UHGV virus genome: UHGV-0326727 | Length of the DNA stretch: 64,000 nt | Source: a virus | Strand: one strand, 5' to 3' | Part shown: in pieces, positions 2,940-63,221 of the stretch | Numbering within the stretch: the first letter of the stretch is position 1 | Layout of the letters: every line of letters starts with the position of its first letter | Made by a program: the position numbers and the translations under genes | Notes under the pieces: model-generated | Seen by the model: only the letters and a program-made list of their open reading frames with translations | Databases searched by the model: none | What the model was told of the DNA's origin: nothing

Positions 2940-3327
2940 AATGACCTCAAAGTTATATTAAATTTTGTATTACATTGAGTATAAAAATAAGCTATAACAC
3001 CTGACTTGTCAACAGATTTTATAGCTTATTTGGCAGATTTTTTATAAGGCTACTGCCATCCTTCCATACATTACCTTACCTTACCTCACCTGACCTGACC
3101 TGACCCTACCTAACATTACCGTGCCACACCTCACTTAAAAACCCTCTTAAAAGACTCTTAAGTGATGTAAGTCTCATTTTAATGTAGCTGAGACTAACTA
3201 CCCATACCTGACCGAACATTACTAGGCCTTACCAGACACTACAGAACAGGACAGCACCGCACCTTATTAAAAGACCCTGTTTAAAGACCTTTTAAAAAGG
3301 AGCCTCCGAAGAGGCTACCTAGTCAAC
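2940..3327. repeat. ORF-free modular repeat region (5-bp periodic ACC tract plus conserved blocks), copy 1
   Basis: cattaccttaccttacctcacctgacctgacctgaccctacc; shares a 42-bp identical block taagtctcattttaatgtagctgagactaactacccatacct and two 35-40 bp near-identical blocks with 4374-4786. Confidence 0.7.
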
Positions 3328-10671: not shown

Positions 10672-10701
10672 ACATTACTGCAAAAAATTATAAAAAGCAA
10701 G

Positions 10702-10730
10702 TTGACAATGTGCTTGACAAGGTGTTAATC
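10702..10730 (+). promoter_or_regulatory. sigma70-like promoter in divergent intergenic region
   Basis: A-rich upstream, TTGACA (10702-10707), 17-bp spacer containing a second TTGACAAGGTG, -10 TTAATC. Confidence 0.4.
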
Positions 10731-10898
10731 TTTGCGAAGTGGGTTTTTACTTAAAAGGTTACTTAACAGTTTAACTATACAGATACTTTAAAACTCTTAA
10801 AAGATTATTTAATAGCTTTTAAAAAGCTTTAAAGTATAACGTATAGAATACGTTAAGATAAAAGATTAAAACTTAATAGTTACTTAAAAGAGGCTTAC

Positions 10899-11321
10899 AT
10901 GCAGAAAATGTTTGTTCACCCAGACATAGCTGACTTTGTTAGAGCTTTGCAGAAGTTGGAAGAACTTGACATTGCTGCTCAACGGGAATATGCTCACCAT
11001 CACAGGAGAATGGTTGATATACAACATGAAATAGAGTTGTCTGAAAACTATGAAGATGACTTAAAATGCTCTGTGTTTGAGCATATGAAAGATGTTGCTA
11101 CAGCGAGACGTAAAGCTAAAGACACAGTTGCTTTACTAGATTCTCTTAAAAAGAGGTTGCAAAGTGGTACAGACCTGTGTAATCTAGCGTCACTGATTAA
11201 CGATGTTGAAACTTCTTGGGATAGACATTACTATCCACGTTCTGAAAAGACACTTGACTTTTCTTCATCAGAAAACTTAAAATGTTCTAGAAAGAAACTT
11301 AACCAACTGAGAGAGAAATAA
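10899..11321 (+). CDS. hypothetical protein
   Basis: 140 aa ORF, first gene of plus-strand operon. Confidence 0.4.
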   Translation: MQKMFVHPDIADFVRALQKLEELDIAAQREYAHHHRRMVDIQHEIELSENYEDDLKCSVFEHMKDVATARRKAKDTVALLDSLKKRLQSGTDLCNLASLINDVETSWDRHYYPRSEKTLDFSSSENLKCSRKKLNQLREK

Positions 11322-46974: not shown

Positions 46975-47223
46975 ATGGCAACTATCCGCGCAATTGTAAA
47001 TTCTTATGGCTGCTACACTCTGGACGTTAAATTTGATATCGGTGGGACTGATGAGTGTTTCGAACTGGTGAAGACAGTCATTAAACAAGTTATCCCAGAC
47101 TATAACCCTACTGATGACTTCTGGAAAGATGCCGTAAAAGAGGCGTTGAACGATGAATATCATTACCATTATTGGGGTGACTTGATTGTCTCACTGTACT
47201 ACAATAAACAAGGTTGCAACTAA
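46975..47223 (+). CDS. hypothetical small protein (array gene 16)
   Basis: Type-2 cassette upstream; last gene before terminator. Confidence 0.45.
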   Translation: MATIRAIVNSYGCYTLDVKFDIGGTDECFELVKTVIKQVIPDYNPTDDFWKDAVKEALNDEYHYHYWGDLIVSLYYNKQGCN

Positions 47224-47260
47224 TCGACGCAACGGGGCAAATAGCCCCAGATACCTTTAC

Positions 47261-47284
47261 AGCCCCTTAAATGGGGCTTTTTTA
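47261..47284 (+). terminator. rho-independent terminator ending the plus-strand array
   Basis: agccccttaaatggggct hairpin followed by TTTTTT. Confidence 0.65.
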
Positions 47285-47285
47285 C

Positions 47286-48810
47286 GTCTTATCAAATCCC
47301 TATGCAATCCTTTCCCTTTCCTTTCCAGAATCTATCCCATACCTTAAAAGCAATAACTCTATAGCTTACTCTATAGCCCCTTATCAAATCAACTTAAATA
47401 TAAGCCCATAACCCGAAAGGGAAGGGCAACCATTTAAACGCTCTATAAAGCCCTATAACAGCCTTATCAACCTAACTTAAGGGATTGCATTACCTCACCC
47501 TTAAAAGCCCTTTATAAAGCTTCCCAGAGCCTTAAAAGAATCTTATAAGGGTGTAAGCTTTATTATCTCGTTAGCTATCTTGTGAATGGTTAAACAACCC
47601 CTTGATAGTCACTAAAAAGTATGTTATAGGGGCTATAAAGTTACTTCAAAGTTACGTAAATGCTAGCCCCCTTAACATTTTCTTAACAATTTCTTAACAA
47701 TCCCTACATAGTTATGCTTTTAAGGCACTTGTTAGCAACTTGTTAGCCCCTTGTTAAATCTCTGTTAATACCTCGTAAAAGCCTTGTAAGAGCCTTTGGC
47801 ATAGCCTTTAAAGCTTCTGTAAAGCCTTATAAAGAGCTTTCTACATAGTTGGGGTGTAATTACTAGAAAGAGATTAAAAAGAGCTTATAAGGGGCTATAA
47901 AGGGCTTTTAAGAGGGCTATTTAAAGAGTCACTAAGAAGGAAAGGGAACGATAAGAAAGAGATAGTGACCATGTTAATAGCTTGTTAAAAAGATTAGACA
48001 CTTGTTAGGAACTTGTTAATTATCTTAACAAAATAACTCTTTAAAATTAACTTGTTAGCTCTTGTTAGTCATCTGTTAAGCCTCTGTAAAGACTATGTAT
48101 CAACTGTTAAGAAACTGTTAAGCTCTTGTTAGTTCTGTTAAGGAACTGTTAAGACCTCTGAAGAGATGTTAAGAAGATGTAGCAACTGTTAAGGGATTGT
48201 TAATGATATTTTAAAATTCTGCAAAGGGGATGTTACAGAGATGTTAAGGGCTACCAAGCAGATATACATCTTCTACAGATATTTTTCAGTTCCTTCAAAG
48301 ACCCTAAAAAATGACTTGATAGTCCTATTTTATAAAAATTTTAAAATTCTGAATAATTACCTATACAGTCTTTTAAAAATACAGGCATAAACAGGCTTAT
48401 AAGATACCTTGTTAGTACCGTGTTAGACCTTGTGAGATAAGGTCTGTAAAGATATTCCTGTTAAGTTTGTTAAAACAGCCTATATAGAGGCTTAGTAATA
48501 CCTAGTGAACACCTATAGAGGGTAACATAGCTAACCTAGAGATTAAGAGGTGTATAGGGGCTTCTAAGAGGGTGTAGAGTGATGGTTAAGGTGATTGTAT
48601 AGGTTGTTAAGAAGGCTTGTTAGAAGAGTGTTTAGAAGGGCTATACAGAGGGGCTATTAAGACCACTAGATAGATACTAAGATACTATATAGTACTATAT
48701 AACTATATATATAGAGAGTAAGCTTAAGAAGGTTGTTAAGAAGGTTAGATATTTTATTCACATATGATGGTGACCCATAGGTTGGGACAACCGATAAAAT
48801 TTTATAAAAA
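47286..48810. repeat. 1.5-kb ORF-free island of degenerate 9-11 bp periodic repeats
   Basis: No ORF of 60 aa or more on either strand; repeat families ccTTATAAag/cTATAAAG (about 47400-47900), CTTGTTAG/CTGTTAAG in both orientations (47680-48200, e.g. caactgttaag aaactgttaag ctcttgttag ttctgttaag gaactgttaag), and a TATATA-rich tract near 48650-48720. Confidence 0.75.
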
Positions 48811-48811
48811 T

Positions 48812-48836
48812 TAAAAAGCCCCCAATTAAGGAGGCT
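48812..48836 (-). terminator. rho-independent terminator for the minus-strand block
   Basis: Reverse complement reads agcctccttaattgggggct + TTTTT, the same hairpin as at 12154-12177. Confidence 0.6.
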
Positions 48837-48847
48837 CTTAAGATATT

Positions 48848-49441
48848 TTAAATCAATGTTTCCAGAACTGTCTTCAGTGATGACTTGGTTGTCTGATAAA
48901 AATGAGTGAATCCATTGTTGTTATCGAATACTTGCATCATGATGTCATCTCCCTTGATTGGGTACACTCGGATATCATAGTGAAAACCATTAAAGACACA
49001 AGAACCACTACAGAATGCTCTAAAGTCATCCACTGAGATATACTCTTCATGTCCTGTGATTTTTATACAAACACCTTTACTCGGTCTCTTAGGGTTGATA
49101 TCTTCCATCACAGACATGCTCTGTCCACCAAGAGAGACCATAGTGACCACTTTACGGTTCTTCTGTCTAAAGTACATCTTAACTTTCTGCAAAGTGTCTT
49201 CATAGAACGGATAAGACCTTTCTACAAAGATTCCTTCAAGTGGCTCTTTACCATTTTCAACTTCTCTGTTATGCCGTACTGCAAAGATAATTTGTTGGAA
49301 CCAGTCAAAATTTTCTTCAGATAGTGCTTCCCGAACATCAGCCCAATCAAGGACTAGGTAGTTGCCTTCAACATCTTTTAAGTTATCTTTTTCCATATCT
49401 ATCACACCATTATCGTAAAACTTGGTAATCTGGTACTGCAA
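48848..49441 (-). CDS. hypothetical protein
   Basis: 197 aa ORF, last gene of minus-strand block. Confidence 0.4.
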   Translation of the reverse strand: MQYQITKFYDNGVIDMEKDNLKDVEGNYLVLDWADVREALSEENFDWFQQIIFAVRHNREVENGKEPLEGIFVERSYPFYEDTLQKVKMYFRQKNRKVVTMVSLGGQSMSVMEDINPKRPSKGVCIKITGHEEYISVDDFRAFCSGSCVFNGFHYDIRVYPIKGDDIMMQVFDNNNGFTHFYQTTKSSLKTVLETLI

Positions 49442-56604: not shown

Positions 56605-56832
56605 GGCAGACCTACAGCTTTAAGTAAGATGGTACAGTAATCCATACAACAAGTCAAGAACTATTGCAAGTTAAAAAAGTTGTTGACAAAGTACTTGACA
56701 AGGTGTAGGCTTATAAATACTTAGAAGATAACTTAAAAGGTTCCTCTAAAAAGGCTATTTAAACAGATATCTTTCTGGATATCTATCTTTTATCTTAAAA
56801 GCCTTTTAAGAGGTCTTATAAGAGGCATACCA

Positions 56833-63047: not shown

Positions 63048-63120
63048 GTGGCCTTATCATAAATGGTAATGACCCATGCTGTGAACATGGTCTATACGGG
63101 TTCAAATCCCGTAGGTCACC
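63048..63120 (+). tRNA. tRNA-His (anticodon GTG)
   Basis: Acceptor gtggcct/aggtcac, D-stem tcat/atga, anticodon stem ccatg/catgg perfect with loop ctGTGaa, discriminator C; CCA encoded. Confidence 0.75.
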
Positions 63121-63129
63121 CCAATTTAT

Positions 63130-63202
63130 AGTCCAAGTAGCTTATATGGTTAAAGCGCGTGTCTGAAAAACATGAGAAGAGGGTTCAAATCCCACTGGAC
63201 TA
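63130..63202 (+). tRNA. tRNA-Phe (anticodon GAA), slightly irregular acceptor/T junction
   Basis: D-stem gctt/aagc, anticodon stem cgtgt/acatg with loop ctGAAaa, T-loop TTCAAAT; acceptor agtccaa/ctggact with one unpaired base; CCA encoded. Confidence 0.6.
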
Positions 63203-63221
63203 CCAATTTCAAAGGTGCTTA

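What the first reader, a model, noticed from the sequence alone, without database searches (positions are those of the whole stretch)
47286..48810. 1.5-kb ORF-free island of periodic degenerate repeats between convergent terminators
Plus-strand transcription ends at a strong terminator (47261-47284) and the minus-strand block ends at a terminator at 48812-48836. Between them there is no ORF of 60 aa or more on either strand. The DNA is packed with 9-11 bp periodic motifs: a TATAAAG family (about 47400-47900), a CTTGTTAG/CTGTTAAG family in reverse then forward orientation (about 47680-48200), and a TATATA-rich tract (about 48650-48720). Helical-repeat spacing plus an AT-rich unwinding-like tract resembles iteron-type replication origins or centromere-like sites, but the function is unknown.
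Basis: seen in the sequence. Interest (0 to 1): 0.8.

Follow-up and report, generated by a model that had tools for sequence, protein, structure and literature searches.

The report
Phage genome end: terminal repeat region
The gene-free, repeat-packed 1.5 kb is where the linear chromosome of this Felix O1-like phage begins and ends: it holds the ~590-bp direct terminal repeat already mapped in close relatives, here filled with about two dozen copies of a short motif (TGTTAA) that all lie on one face of the DNA helix.

Summary
Positions 47224-48847 are the longest ORF-free stretch in the window. Convergent terminators bracket it, and its 11-bp repeat signal is far above shuffled controls (z=28).

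The window is a Felixounavirus (Felix O1-like myophage) genome. The island is orthologous to the virion-DNA end region of relatives. The direct terminal repeat (DTR) of UAB_Phi87, sequenced experimentally, and the DTRs annotated in Pr103Blw (PhageTerm), UAB_69 and Citrobacter phage HP1 all map to window 47666-48255 (590 bp). This assembly holds one collapsed copy. It is flanked by 380 bp and 555 bp of conserved non-coding DNA.

The DTR holds 24 TGTTA[A/G] sites, about 44 times the background density. The left flank has none.
- The 20 forward copies keep a 10.4-bp phase across the whole repeat.
- The TGTTAA cores are conserved at 93-99%, against 73-85% for the spacers.
- Both DTR boundaries carry the same module in inverted orientation.
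- The plan recurs in Mooglevirus, Suspvirus and Erwinia Kolesnikvirus.

Most likely the motifs are binding sites for an unidentified packaging or end-processing protein that positions the terminase cuts. Nothing specifically supports a replication origin or a centromere. The element's identity is already known; its internal anatomy appears undescribed.

The parts
47261..47284 (+). Rho-independent terminator that closes the 36-kb plus-strand gene block
   Evidence: Stem AGCCCC-ttaaat-GGGGCT plus a T-run. Conserved 82-98% in relatives.
47286..47665 (.). Left non-coding flank. In the virion this is the unique DNA just inside the right-end DTR copy. The top strand is C-rich (GC skew -0.3 to -0.36). 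It carries CTnnnnAG words (CTATAAAG, CTTAAAAG, CTCTATAG) and no TGTTA[AG] site.
   Evidence: It is 67-74% identical in Mooglevirus/Suspvirus, against 56-61% for the adjacent gene. Indels come in 11-, 22- and 33-bp units.
47404..47427 (.). Small conserved stem-loop GCCC-ataa-CCC-gaaa-GGG-aa-GGGC, about 240 bp outside the left DTR boundary
   Evidence: Invariant in 11 of 12 aligned genomes. Phage H12 carries changes that keep a stem possible. DNA fold -5.3 kcal/mol, z=-2.5. The H12 version (z=-0.63) and the unrelated phiEa104 hairpin at a similar place (z=-1.97) fold little or no better than shuffles. Weak evidence.
47666..48255 (.). Direct terminal repeat (DTR), present as a single collapsed copy of 590 bp. 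The left physical end of the virion DNA is at 47666. The right physical end is at 48255.
   Evidence: The Pr103Blw DTR (PhageTerm, 581 bp, identical copies at both ends of the record) aligns to exactly these limits. The UAB_69 annotated DTR is 2 nt longer on each side. The UAB_Phi87 run-off-sequenced DTR runs AACATTTTC...GGGCTACCAA, which is window 47674-48257. The HP1 (Mooglevirus) 570-bp repeat, identical at both ends, has the same limits. Records H12, E9 and NBEco005 start at 47666, NBEco004 ends there, and SLAM_phiST56 ends at 48255.
47669..47701 (-). Left boundary module: three TGTTAAG sites on the minus strand at 11-bp spacing, pointing outward, starting 3 nt inside the terminus
   Evidence: The block TA|GCCCCCTTwACATTnnnTTAACAAnnTCTTAACAA is almost invariant across 12 genomes of three genera.
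47728..47771 (+). Four forward (C)TTGTTA[G/A] sites at 11-bp spacing
   Evidence: Relatives gain or lose units in 11- and 22-bp steps.
47772..47969 (.). Central DTR segment without TGTTAA sites. It carries CTnnnnAG words (CTTGTAAG, CTTTAAAG, CTGTAAAG, CTTATAAG, CTATAAAG, CTTTTAAG). Their flanking bases switch from GCC-type to GGG-type near 47850, where the GC skew changes sign.
47970..48250 (+). Main TGTTA[A/G] array: 17 sites (16 forward, 1 reverse). Together with the four at 47728-47771, the 20 forward sites are phase-coherent at 10.4 bp.
   Evidence: Phase coherence R=0.79, p=0.002 against random placement, with the same period in Felix O1, UAB_69, HP1, Sf13 and SUSP1. Core positions are conserved at 0.93-0.99 against 0.73-0.85 for spacers, Mann-Whitney p=9e-11.
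48013..48031 (.). Perfect palindrome TTGTTAA-ttatc-TTAACAA (two sites head to head)
   Evidence: Read from the sequence. Invariant in 11 of 12 aligned genomes; Pr103Blw has one substitution, TTAATAA.
48242..48268 (+). Right boundary module TGTTAAGGGCTACC|AAGCAGATATACA, with the terminus after 48255
   Evidence: Invariant except for one base across 12 genomes. ...ACTAAGCAGATATACA is retained in Erwinia phage phiEa104. The reverse complement of GGGCTA...TGTTAA mirrors the left boundary TAGCCC(CC)TTAACAT.
48256..48810 (.). Right non-coding flank. In the virion this is the unique DNA just inside the left-end DTR copy. The top strand is G-rich (GC skew up to +0.43). It holds 7 more forward TGTTA[AG] sites and is the best-conserved part within Felixounavirus (88-97%).
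48670..48711 (.). ACTATATA-type tandem tract (period 8, about 4.8 copies). The copy number varies among relatives.
   Evidence: Annotated only as 'repeat_region' in the Danish wastewater phage records.
48804..48839 (-). Rho-independent terminator that closes the minus-strand gene block
   Evidence: 10-bp stem followed by a T-run.

Best explanation
The island is the chromosome-end (concatemer-junction) region of a Felixounavirus.

What is shown or follows from homology:
- In the virion the DNA is linear and not permuted. It starts at window 47666 and ends at 48255, so the 590 bp between these points is present at both ends as a direct terminal repeat (DTR).
- The assembly behind this window joined the ends and kept one copy.
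- Both flanking gene blocks are transcribed toward the ends. Each stops at its own terminator, which leaves the junction free of transcription.

What is inferred:
- The DTR is built as a scaffold of about 24 TGTTAA sites. The forward copies lie on one face of the helix for roughly 57 turns.
- An outward-facing TGTTAAGGG copy and a shared TAGCCC..TTAACAT module sit at each boundary.
- A phage-encoded DNA-binding protein, not yet identified, coats or wraps this array. No small terminase is annotated in this subfamily. The bound protein presents the two boundary modules to the large terminase.
- The terminase cuts or nicks at both DTR limits. The repeat is then duplicated by strand-displacement synthesis, as in the classical T7-type model.
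- The conserved flanks would hold accessory sites for the same process.
For: Identity of the element:
- 257 phage records, all Ounavirinae apart from one mislabelled record, match the island, and 196 of them cover at least 80% of it.
- The DTR limits of four relatives fall on the same nucleotides, within 2-8 nt. They were obtained by three routes: run-off Sanger sequencing with Bal31 digestion for UAB_Phi87; PhageTerm for Pr103Blw; and GenBank annotation for UAB_69 and HP1.
- In-silico SpeI digestion of UAB_Phi87 with ends placed here gives terminal fragments of 2747 and 4435 bp. The published Bal31-sensitive fragments are 2819 and 4322 bp.
- At least seven further records were opened or closed at exactly 47666 or 48255.

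The repeats are functional sites:
- The island is more conserved than the flanking genes (67-75% against 56-61% in other genera).
- TGTTAA cores are conserved while spacers drift.
- Indels come in 11-, 12- and 22-bp units that preserve phase.
- The 10.4-bp global phase is kept in three genera.

Link to the termini:
- There is no site in the 380-bp left flank. The first site lies 3 nt inside the left end, and the last DTR site ends 7 nt before the right end. The density is 34 per kb against 0.77 per kb background.
- The same plan appears in Erwinia phiEa104 even though alignable similarity is almost gone.

Precedent:
- The terminal repeat of T7 is likewise filled and flanked by heptamer arrays (CCTAAAG, 13-bp spacing).
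Against: - No reads from this phage's virion DNA are available, so the termini are inferred by homology (86-96% identity in the DTR).
- The protein that reads TGTTAA is unknown. The 66-aa ORF just upstream of the large terminase gene in Pr103Blw is acidic and matches no known family or solved structure.
- Seven TGTTA[AG] sites lie outside the DTR in the right flank, so the array is not strictly confined to the repeat.
- The cut positions relative to the shared boundary module differ by about 4 nt between the two ends. The three boundary determinations disagree by 2-8 nt.
- About 24 sites is far more than a terminase normally needs, so another role or an extra role is possible: end protection, ejection control or replication.
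- The function of the T7 arrays, the closest precedent, is not well established either (my own knowledge).
Confidence: 0.8

Rival explanations
1. An iteron-type replication origin. A phage initiator binds the phased TGTTAA repeats and melts a nearby AT-rich tract, such as the TATATA array at 48670-48711. This could operate in addition to the DTR role.
For: Many direct repeats are in helical phase. A TA-rich tandem tract lies nearby and is conserved. The GC skew changes sign inside the island with the polarity expected of a bidirectional origin. No origin has been mapped in this subfamily, and the Felix O1 genome paper names none.
Against: - DnaA boxes are not enriched: one site with one mismatch, at chance level.
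- No initiator-like gene is nearby; all ten neighbours are of unknown function.
- The island's GC content is barely below the genome mean.
- The skew comes from motif orientation over 1.5 kb, not from a genome-scale trend.
- The array edges coincide with the packaging cut sites, which an origin would not require.
- The site (6 bp) and copy number (24) differ from the iteron origins I recall (lambda, with four 19-bp repeats; SPP1) (my own knowledge).
Confidence: 0.1
2. A centromere-like, end-protection or ejection-control array. A phage or virion protein coats the terminal repeat. It would shield the linear ends from RecBCD, tether or segregate genomes, or pace DNA entry, as at the repeat-rich injection-stop region in the terminal repeat of T5.
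For: The one-face phasing at 10.4 bp over about 57 turns resembles, from my own knowledge, the ParR-parC type of filament-forming array. The location at both physical ends fits an end-specific function. The number of sites exceeds what cutting alone should need.
Against: No ParA/ParB/ParR-like or other recognisable DNA-binding gene is adjacent. A lytic phage has no evident need for partition. Two-step transfer is not reported for Felix O1 in the papers read. The boundary modules are the most conserved parts, which points to cutting.
Confidence: 0.08
3. A long non-coding transcript, or several small RNAs, is made from the island.
For: 1.5 kb of conserved non-coding DNA and a small conserved hairpin with changes that keep a stem possible.
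Against: Terminators on both sides face inward. Promoter-like sites are not above shuffles (11 against 6.5 +/- 2.6, all 9/12 matches). There is no Rfam match. Conservation follows 6-bp cores in 10.4-bp phase, which is a DNA-level signature rather than an RNA-structure one.
Confidence: 0.02

Closest known systems
Direct terminal repeats of Felixounavirus and Mooglevirus phages: UAB_Phi87 (608 bp, experimental), Pr103Blw (581 bp), Ro111lw (613 bp), UAB_69 (618 bp), HP1 (570 bp)
   Same: Orthologous sequence, 74-96% identical across the DTR. The boundary blocks, the position between the same two gene blocks and the length class are the same.
   Different: Nothing essential. This phage's copy is 590 bp because of 11- and 22-bp unit indels. 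The papers read give only the length and sequence of the repeat. None of them describes the TGTTAA array, its phasing or the inverted boundary modules.
Terminal repeat of phage T7 and its adjoining short-repeat arrays (SRL/SRR of Dunn and Studier 1983; names from my own knowledge)
   Same: A short exact DTR at site-specific ends, filled and flanked by arrays of a 7-bp word at a fixed spacing near one helical turn. T7 has 3 CCTAAAG copies inside its 160-bp repeat and about 12 just after it, at 13-bp spacing. DTRs are used in replication, concatemer formation and packaging.
   Different: No sequence homology, and a different phage family (Autographiviridae podovirus against Ounavirinae myovirus). 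The spacing is 13 bp against 11 bp locally and 10.4 bp globally. In T7 most copies lie outside the repeat; here most lie inside. T7 has early promoters next to the repeat, whereas here the neighbouring genes point toward the ends. T7 has a known small terminase (gp18), and none is known here.
pac/cos recognition regions bound by small terminase at repeated, phased sites (lambda cosB R-sites with IHF; SPP1 pacL/pacR) - my own knowledge
   Same: Repeated short sites next to the terminase cut site. Phasing implies DNA wrapping.
   Different: Those regions have 3-7 sites over 100-200 bp and a known TerS. Here there are about 24 sites over 590 bp, two cut sites in inverted orientation, and no identified TerS.
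Iteron origins and ParR-parC-type centromeres
   Same: Arrays of short direct repeats in helical phase.
   Different: No cognate initiator or partition genes are adjacent. The location coincides with the packaging termini. No DnaA boxes are present.

Membership tests
Felixounavirus-type short direct terminal repeat (non-permuted, site-specific ends) | Sequence orthologous to a DTR whose ends were determined experimentally | tested here: met
   The UAB_Phi87 run-off-sequenced DTR aligns to window 47674-48257. The DTR is 86% identical overall and the boundary blocks are invariant.
Felixounavirus-type short direct terminal repeat (non-permuted, site-specific ends) | The same segment is present at both ends of the virion DNA | not testable with these tools
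   No reads or virion DNA exist for this phage, and the window holds one copy. In relatives the two end copies are identical: Pr103Blw 581 bp and HP1 570 bp.
Felixounavirus-type short direct terminal repeat (non-permuted, site-specific ends) | Fixed termini, i.e. the same end nucleotides in independent isolates | tested here: met
   Records Pr103Blw, H12, E9 and NBEco005 start at window 47666, and NBEco004 ends there. HP1 and SLAM_phiST56 end at 48255. The terminal SpeI fragments predicted for UAB_Phi87 (2747 and 4435 bp) roughly match the published Bal31-sensitive fragments (2819 and 4322 bp).
Felixounavirus-type short direct terminal repeat (non-permuted, site-specific ends) | Large terminase belongs to the short-DTR clade | not tested
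   The TerL gene lies just beyond the right end of the window. The UAB_Phi87 paper places Felix O1-type TerL in a DTR cluster.
Iteron-type replication origin | Several direct repeats of an initiator-binding site | tested here: met
   24 TGTTA[AG] sites lie in 590 bp. This feature is not specific to origins.
Iteron-type replication origin | Initiator gene adjacent to or overlapping the repeats | tested here: not met
   The ten nearest genes match only PHROGs families of unknown function and no Pfam family. An unrecognised initiator cannot be excluded.
Iteron-type replication origin | AT-rich unwinding element and host-factor sites (DnaA, IHF) | tested here: inconclusive
   A TATATA tandem array is present, but GC content is only 0.30-0.36 against 0.37. 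DnaA boxes are at chance level. The one IHF-consensus site is not conserved.
Iteron-type replication origin | Replication initiates here | not testable with these tools
   Needs marker-frequency analysis or 2D gels.
Centromere-like partition site (parC/parS type) | Phased repeat array | tested here: met
   10.4-bp phase coherence, R=0.79, p=0.002.
Centromere-like partition site (parC/parS type) | Adjacent genes for a centromere-binding protein and a partition NTPase | tested here: not met
   No such families are found among the ten flanking genes.
Terminase recognition (pac/cos-type) region | Lies at the terminase cut site or sites | tested here: met
   The array limits and the conserved boundary modules coincide with the mapped termini.
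Terminase recognition (pac/cos-type) region | Bound by the small terminase subunit | not testable with these tools
   No TerS is known for Felix O1-like phages. The ORFs next to TerL give no match.

The most novel reading that the evidence does not exclude
The whole terminal repeat of the Felix O1 group is a one-face array of TGTTAA sites, about 57 helical turns long and closed at each end by the same module in inverted orientation. This would be a recognition architecture not described for any terminase. It would nucleate a nucleoprotein filament or wrap made by a still-unidentified phage protein, either a cryptic small terminase or an end-binding protein, in a subfamily where no TerS has been found. 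That complex, rather than a short pac site, would set both cut sites and hence the length of the repeat. The 11-bp unit gains and losses seen between isolates would then explain why DTR length varies (570-618 bp).
Probability: 0.35. Interest if true: 0.6.

Novelty: already known. Interest (0 to 1): 0.33.

Why it matters
For annotation, the island should be labelled as the genome terminus and DTR. The genome should be opened at 47666, and the small ORFs some records call inside the island (for example the 49-aa ORF at 48241-48390) should be dropped.

For biology, how short exact terminal repeats are recognised, cut and duplicated is still poorly understood outside T7. Felix O1-like phages lack a recognisable small terminase. 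The conserved, phased TGTTAA array with mirrored boundary modules gives a concrete DNA bait for finding the missing recognition protein. It also gives defined mutations for testing how the two cuts are placed.

For engineering therapeutic Felix O1-like phages, this 1.5 kb should be treated as cis-essential until shown otherwise, not as free space for insertions.

Tried and rejected
- T5-type injection-stop region. This was my first guess from the look of the sequence. I dropped it once BLAST showed a Felixounavirus.
- The UAB_Phi87 GenBank record as a guide to the ends. It starts in the tRNA region, not at a physical end, so I used the paper's supplementary DTR sequence instead.
- The 'repeat_region' features in the Danish wastewater phage records. 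They are only the two tandem arrays, not DTR annotations.
- Promoters and RNA. Promoter-like sites are not above shuffles and there is no Rfam hit.
- DnaA and IHF sites. Both are at chance level.
- Coding potential. The 49-aa ORF at 48241-48390 has its ATG replaced by CTG or TTG in 8 of 12 relatives and straddles the DTR boundary, so I rejected it as a gene.
- A specific long-range pairing from the perfect 17-nt inverted repeat 47500-47516 / 47896-47912. The complementarity is not kept in relatives, so it reflects word-family resemblance only.
- A shared cut-site consensus C^WAGCA at both boundaries. It holds in Felixounavirus, but the left version changes in Mooglevirus and Suspvirus, so I make no claim from it.
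- A search for a small terminase next to TerL in Pr103Blw. The 66-aa, 80-aa, 185-aa and 253-aa ORFs match only unknown-function families, and the 66-aa protein is acidic with no PDB match.
- PhageMaP essentiality data for Bas63. The main text reports nothing for this intergenic region.
- Phase test on Erwinia phiEa104. It is not significant (p=0.06, best period 9.9 bp), so the one-face claim covers only the three enterobacterial genera.
Full report
**1. What is in the sequence**

Positions 47224-48847 form the longest stretch of the 64-kb window without an ORF of 60 aa or more on either strand (1,624 bp). The next longest stretches are tRNA clusters.

A plus-strand terminator lies at 47261-47284 and a minus-strand terminator at 48839-48804. 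They close a 36-kb rightward gene block and an 8-kb leftward block.

The DNA between them is strongly periodic.
- Identical 5-mers at a distance of 11 bp occur 69 times, against 2.9 +/- 2.35 in 200 dinucleotide-preserving shuffles (z=28).
- Further peaks fall at 10, 12, 20-22, 31 and 42 bp.
- No other part of the window comes close.

Only the 'AT-rich unwinding tract' is overstated: GC content is 0.30-0.36, against about 0.37 nearby.

**2. Where the window comes from**

The island matches 257 phage records, all Felix O1-like myophages apart from one mislabelled record. They belong to Ounavirinae: Felixounavirus, plus Mooglevirus at about 79% identity. In 196 records the match covers at least 80% of the island, and it is almost never annotated.

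Felix O1 itself has the same gap between its ORF23 and ORF24. SUSP1 (Suspvirus), Sf13 (Mooglevirus) and Erwinia phage phiEa104 (Kolesnikvirus) have syntenic non-coding gaps of 1.4-1.7 kb between convergent genes.

**3. The decisive finding: this is the end of the virion chromosome**

Several records begin or end inside the island at one particular nucleotide.

- Pr103Blw carries an annotated 581-bp 'short direct terminal repeat' at both ends, and the two copies are identical. Its paper obtained the repeat with PhageTerm.
- UAB_69 annotates a 618-bp DTR.
- Citrobacter phage HP1 (Mooglevirus) carries identical 570-bp repeats at both ends.
- For UAB_Phi87 the ends were found with Bal31 digestion and run-off sequencing. 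The 608-bp DTR sequence is printed in the supplement.

All four map to the same place in the window. The left end is at 47666 (GCCCCCTTAACA...; 47664 in UAB_69, 47674 in the run-off version). The right end is at 48255 (...TGTTAAGGGCTACC; 48257 in the two UAB phages).

Placing the ends there in UAB_Phi87 predicts terminal SpeI fragments of 2747 and 4435 bp. The published Bal31-sensitive fragments are 2819 and 4322 bp. The deposited record is 66 bp shorter than the published length, which may account for part of the difference.

The window therefore contains one collapsed copy of a 590-bp DTR. It is flanked by 380 bp (left) and 555 bp (right) of non-coding DNA. In the virion these flanks lie just inside the right and left ends, respectively. 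Both neighbouring gene blocks are transcribed toward the ends.

**4. Anatomy of the repeat**

The core motif is TGTTA[A/G].

- The DTR holds 24 copies (20 forward, 4 reverse), the right flank 7 and the left flank none. The background is 0.77 per kb per strand.
- All eight CTTGTTAG octamers of the window lie in the island.
- Three inverted copies at 11-bp spacing begin 3 nt inside the left end.
- The last forward DTR copy ends 7 nt before the right end. Each boundary therefore has an outward-facing ...ATGTTAAGGG.
- Both boundaries share the module TAGCCC(CC)TTAACAT in inverted orientation.
- A perfect palindrome, TTGTTAAttatcTTAACAA, sits at 48013-48031.
- Local spacing is mostly 11 bp, with occasional 9-, 10- and 20-bp steps. 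As a result the 20 forward sites stay in phase at 10.4 bp across the whole repeat (R=0.79, p=0.002).
- The same period is found in Felix O1, UAB_69, HP1, Sf13 and SUSP1. These genomes are homologous, so they are not independent tests. The phase does survive their 11- and 22-bp indels.

The looser TATAAAG-type words belong to a CTnnnnAG family. This family fills the left flank and the middle of the DTR, and its orientation flips near 47850, which produces the GC-skew sign change. Some of these words, such as CTTAAAAG, are common in promoter-leader regions elsewhere in the genome. They are therefore not specific to the island.

**5. Evidence of selection**

In a 12-genome alignment the island is more conserved than the genes beside it.

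| Comparison | Island | Flanking genes |
|---|---|---|
| Mooglevirus / Suspvirus | 67-75% | 56-61% |
| Felix O1 | 82-94% | 71-82% |

- Within the DTR the six core positions are conserved at 0.93-0.99, against 0.73-0.85 for neighbouring positions (p=9e-11).
- The boundary blocks are nearly invariant: GTwACGTAAAnnnTA|GCCCCCTTwACATT and TGTTwAGGGCTACC|AAGCAGATATACA.
- Indels come in 11-, 12-, 22- and 33-bp units.

Erwinia phiEa104 has lost almost all alignable similarity. It still shows inverted TTAACA copies, then forward TGTTAAG(A) copies (17 sites in a predicted DTR of about 439 bp), then ...ACTAAGCAGATATACA. Its left flank uses a different repeat family, TCTTCTAA. This pattern is what protein-binding sites show. 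Decaying duplications or RNA structure would not give it.

**6. Mechanism**

Shown, or following from homology: the ends of the packaged DNA lie at 47666 and 48255, so the terminase must act at both limits of the repeat.

Inferred:
- The phased array is bound along one face of the helix by a phage protein.
- That protein presents the mirrored boundary modules to the large terminase.
- The single junction copy of the repeat is then duplicated, as in the staggered-nick, strand-displacement scheme proposed for T7 (textbook model, my own knowledge).

Which strand is cut, and by what, cannot be read from the sequence.

No small terminase is known in this group. The ORFs next to TerL in Pr103Blw give no lead.

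T7 offers a precedent. Its 160-bp repeat contains three CCTAAAG heptamers and is followed by about twelve more at 13-bp spacing. To my knowledge the role of those arrays is still not settled.

**7. Rivals**

- Replication origin. The repeats and a TA-rich tandem tract are present. There are no enriched DnaA boxes, no conserved IHF site, no initiator-like neighbour and little AT enrichment. An origin also gives no reason for the array to stop at the packaging cuts. A co-resident origin remains possible (about 0.1).
- Centromere, end protection or ejection control. The one-face phasing and the excess of sites would fit. There are no partner genes and no supporting phenotype in the papers read (about 0.08).
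- Non-coding RNA. Inward-facing terminators, no promoters above chance and no Rfam match argue against it.

**8. Novelty and verdict**

The identity of the element is already known. DTRs of about 570-618 bp are published or annotated for this group.

Across six literature searches and the six papers I consulted, I found no description of the TGTTAA array, its phasing, the mirrored boundary modules or the conservation across genera. That anatomy is a modest new detail, and it yields testable predictions.

The finding is real but ordinary in kind.

Noticed in passing
window 2940-3327: A 388-bp ORF-free stretch between minus-strand genes carries a different, C-rich short-period repeat (ccttaccttacctcacctgacctgacctgaccctacc, about 3060-3130, and again about 3200-3260). 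It is followed by CTTAAAAG-type words.
   Followed up: no
window 10680-10900 and 56660-56830: Two promoter regions each have tandem TTGACA boxes (agTTGACAatgtgcTTGACAagg; TTGTTGACAaagtaCTTGACAagg). Leaders packed with CTTAAAAG / CTTATAAG / CTTTTAAG words at roughly 11-bp spacing follow, ending in AAGAGG ribosome-binding sites. These words are a genome-wide intergenic vocabulary.
   Followed up: partly
window 47404-47427: A small stem-loop (GCCC-ataa-CCC-gaaa-GGG-aa-GGGC) is invariant in 11 of 12 relatives. Phage H12 has changes that keep a stem possible, but its version folds no better than shuffles (z=-0.63). Erwinia phiEa104 has an unrelated hairpin at a similar place (z=-1.97). Stability is low (-5.3 kcal/mol as DNA). 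Its position, about 240 bp before the right-end repeat copy, recalls the hairpin intermediate proposed for T7 concatemer processing (from memory).
   Followed up: partly
window 48241-48390: A 49-aa ORF is annotated as 'hypothetical protein' in SME50, UAB_69 and UAB_Phi87. It straddles the DTR boundary, and its ATG is CTG or TTG in 8 of 12 relatives. It is probably a spurious gene call.
   Followed up: yes
window 46975-47223 and 48848-49441: The genes on either side of the island diverge faster than the non-coding island itself. The 82-aa protein is only 46-65% identical in many relatives whose island is 79-90% identical at the DNA level. All ten neighbouring genes belong to families of unknown function.
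   Followed up: partly
window 58867-63205: A cluster of 24 tRNA genes, interrupted by small ORFs, is typical of Felix O1-like phages. The GenBank record of UAB_Phi87 is opened inside this cluster rather than at a physical end.
   Followed up: no
L013 (Erwinia phage phiEa104) 2110-3538: In this syntenic 1.43-kb non-coding island the left flank uses a different repeat family (TCTTCTAA[A/G], 9-12 copies at about 11 bp), while the TGTTAAG array and ...AAGCAGATATACA are retained. From the conserved boundary motifs I predict a DTR of about 439 bp (L013 2666-3104). I found no DTR annotation for this phage.
   Followed up: partly
L017 (Pr103Blw) 2577-2777, just beyond the right end of the window: The 66-aa ORF immediately upstream of the large terminase gene is acidic (MSETVYKELYEANKK...). 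It belongs to phrog_4397 (unknown function) and has no PDB relative. It does not look like a DNA-binding small terminase.
   Followed up: partly
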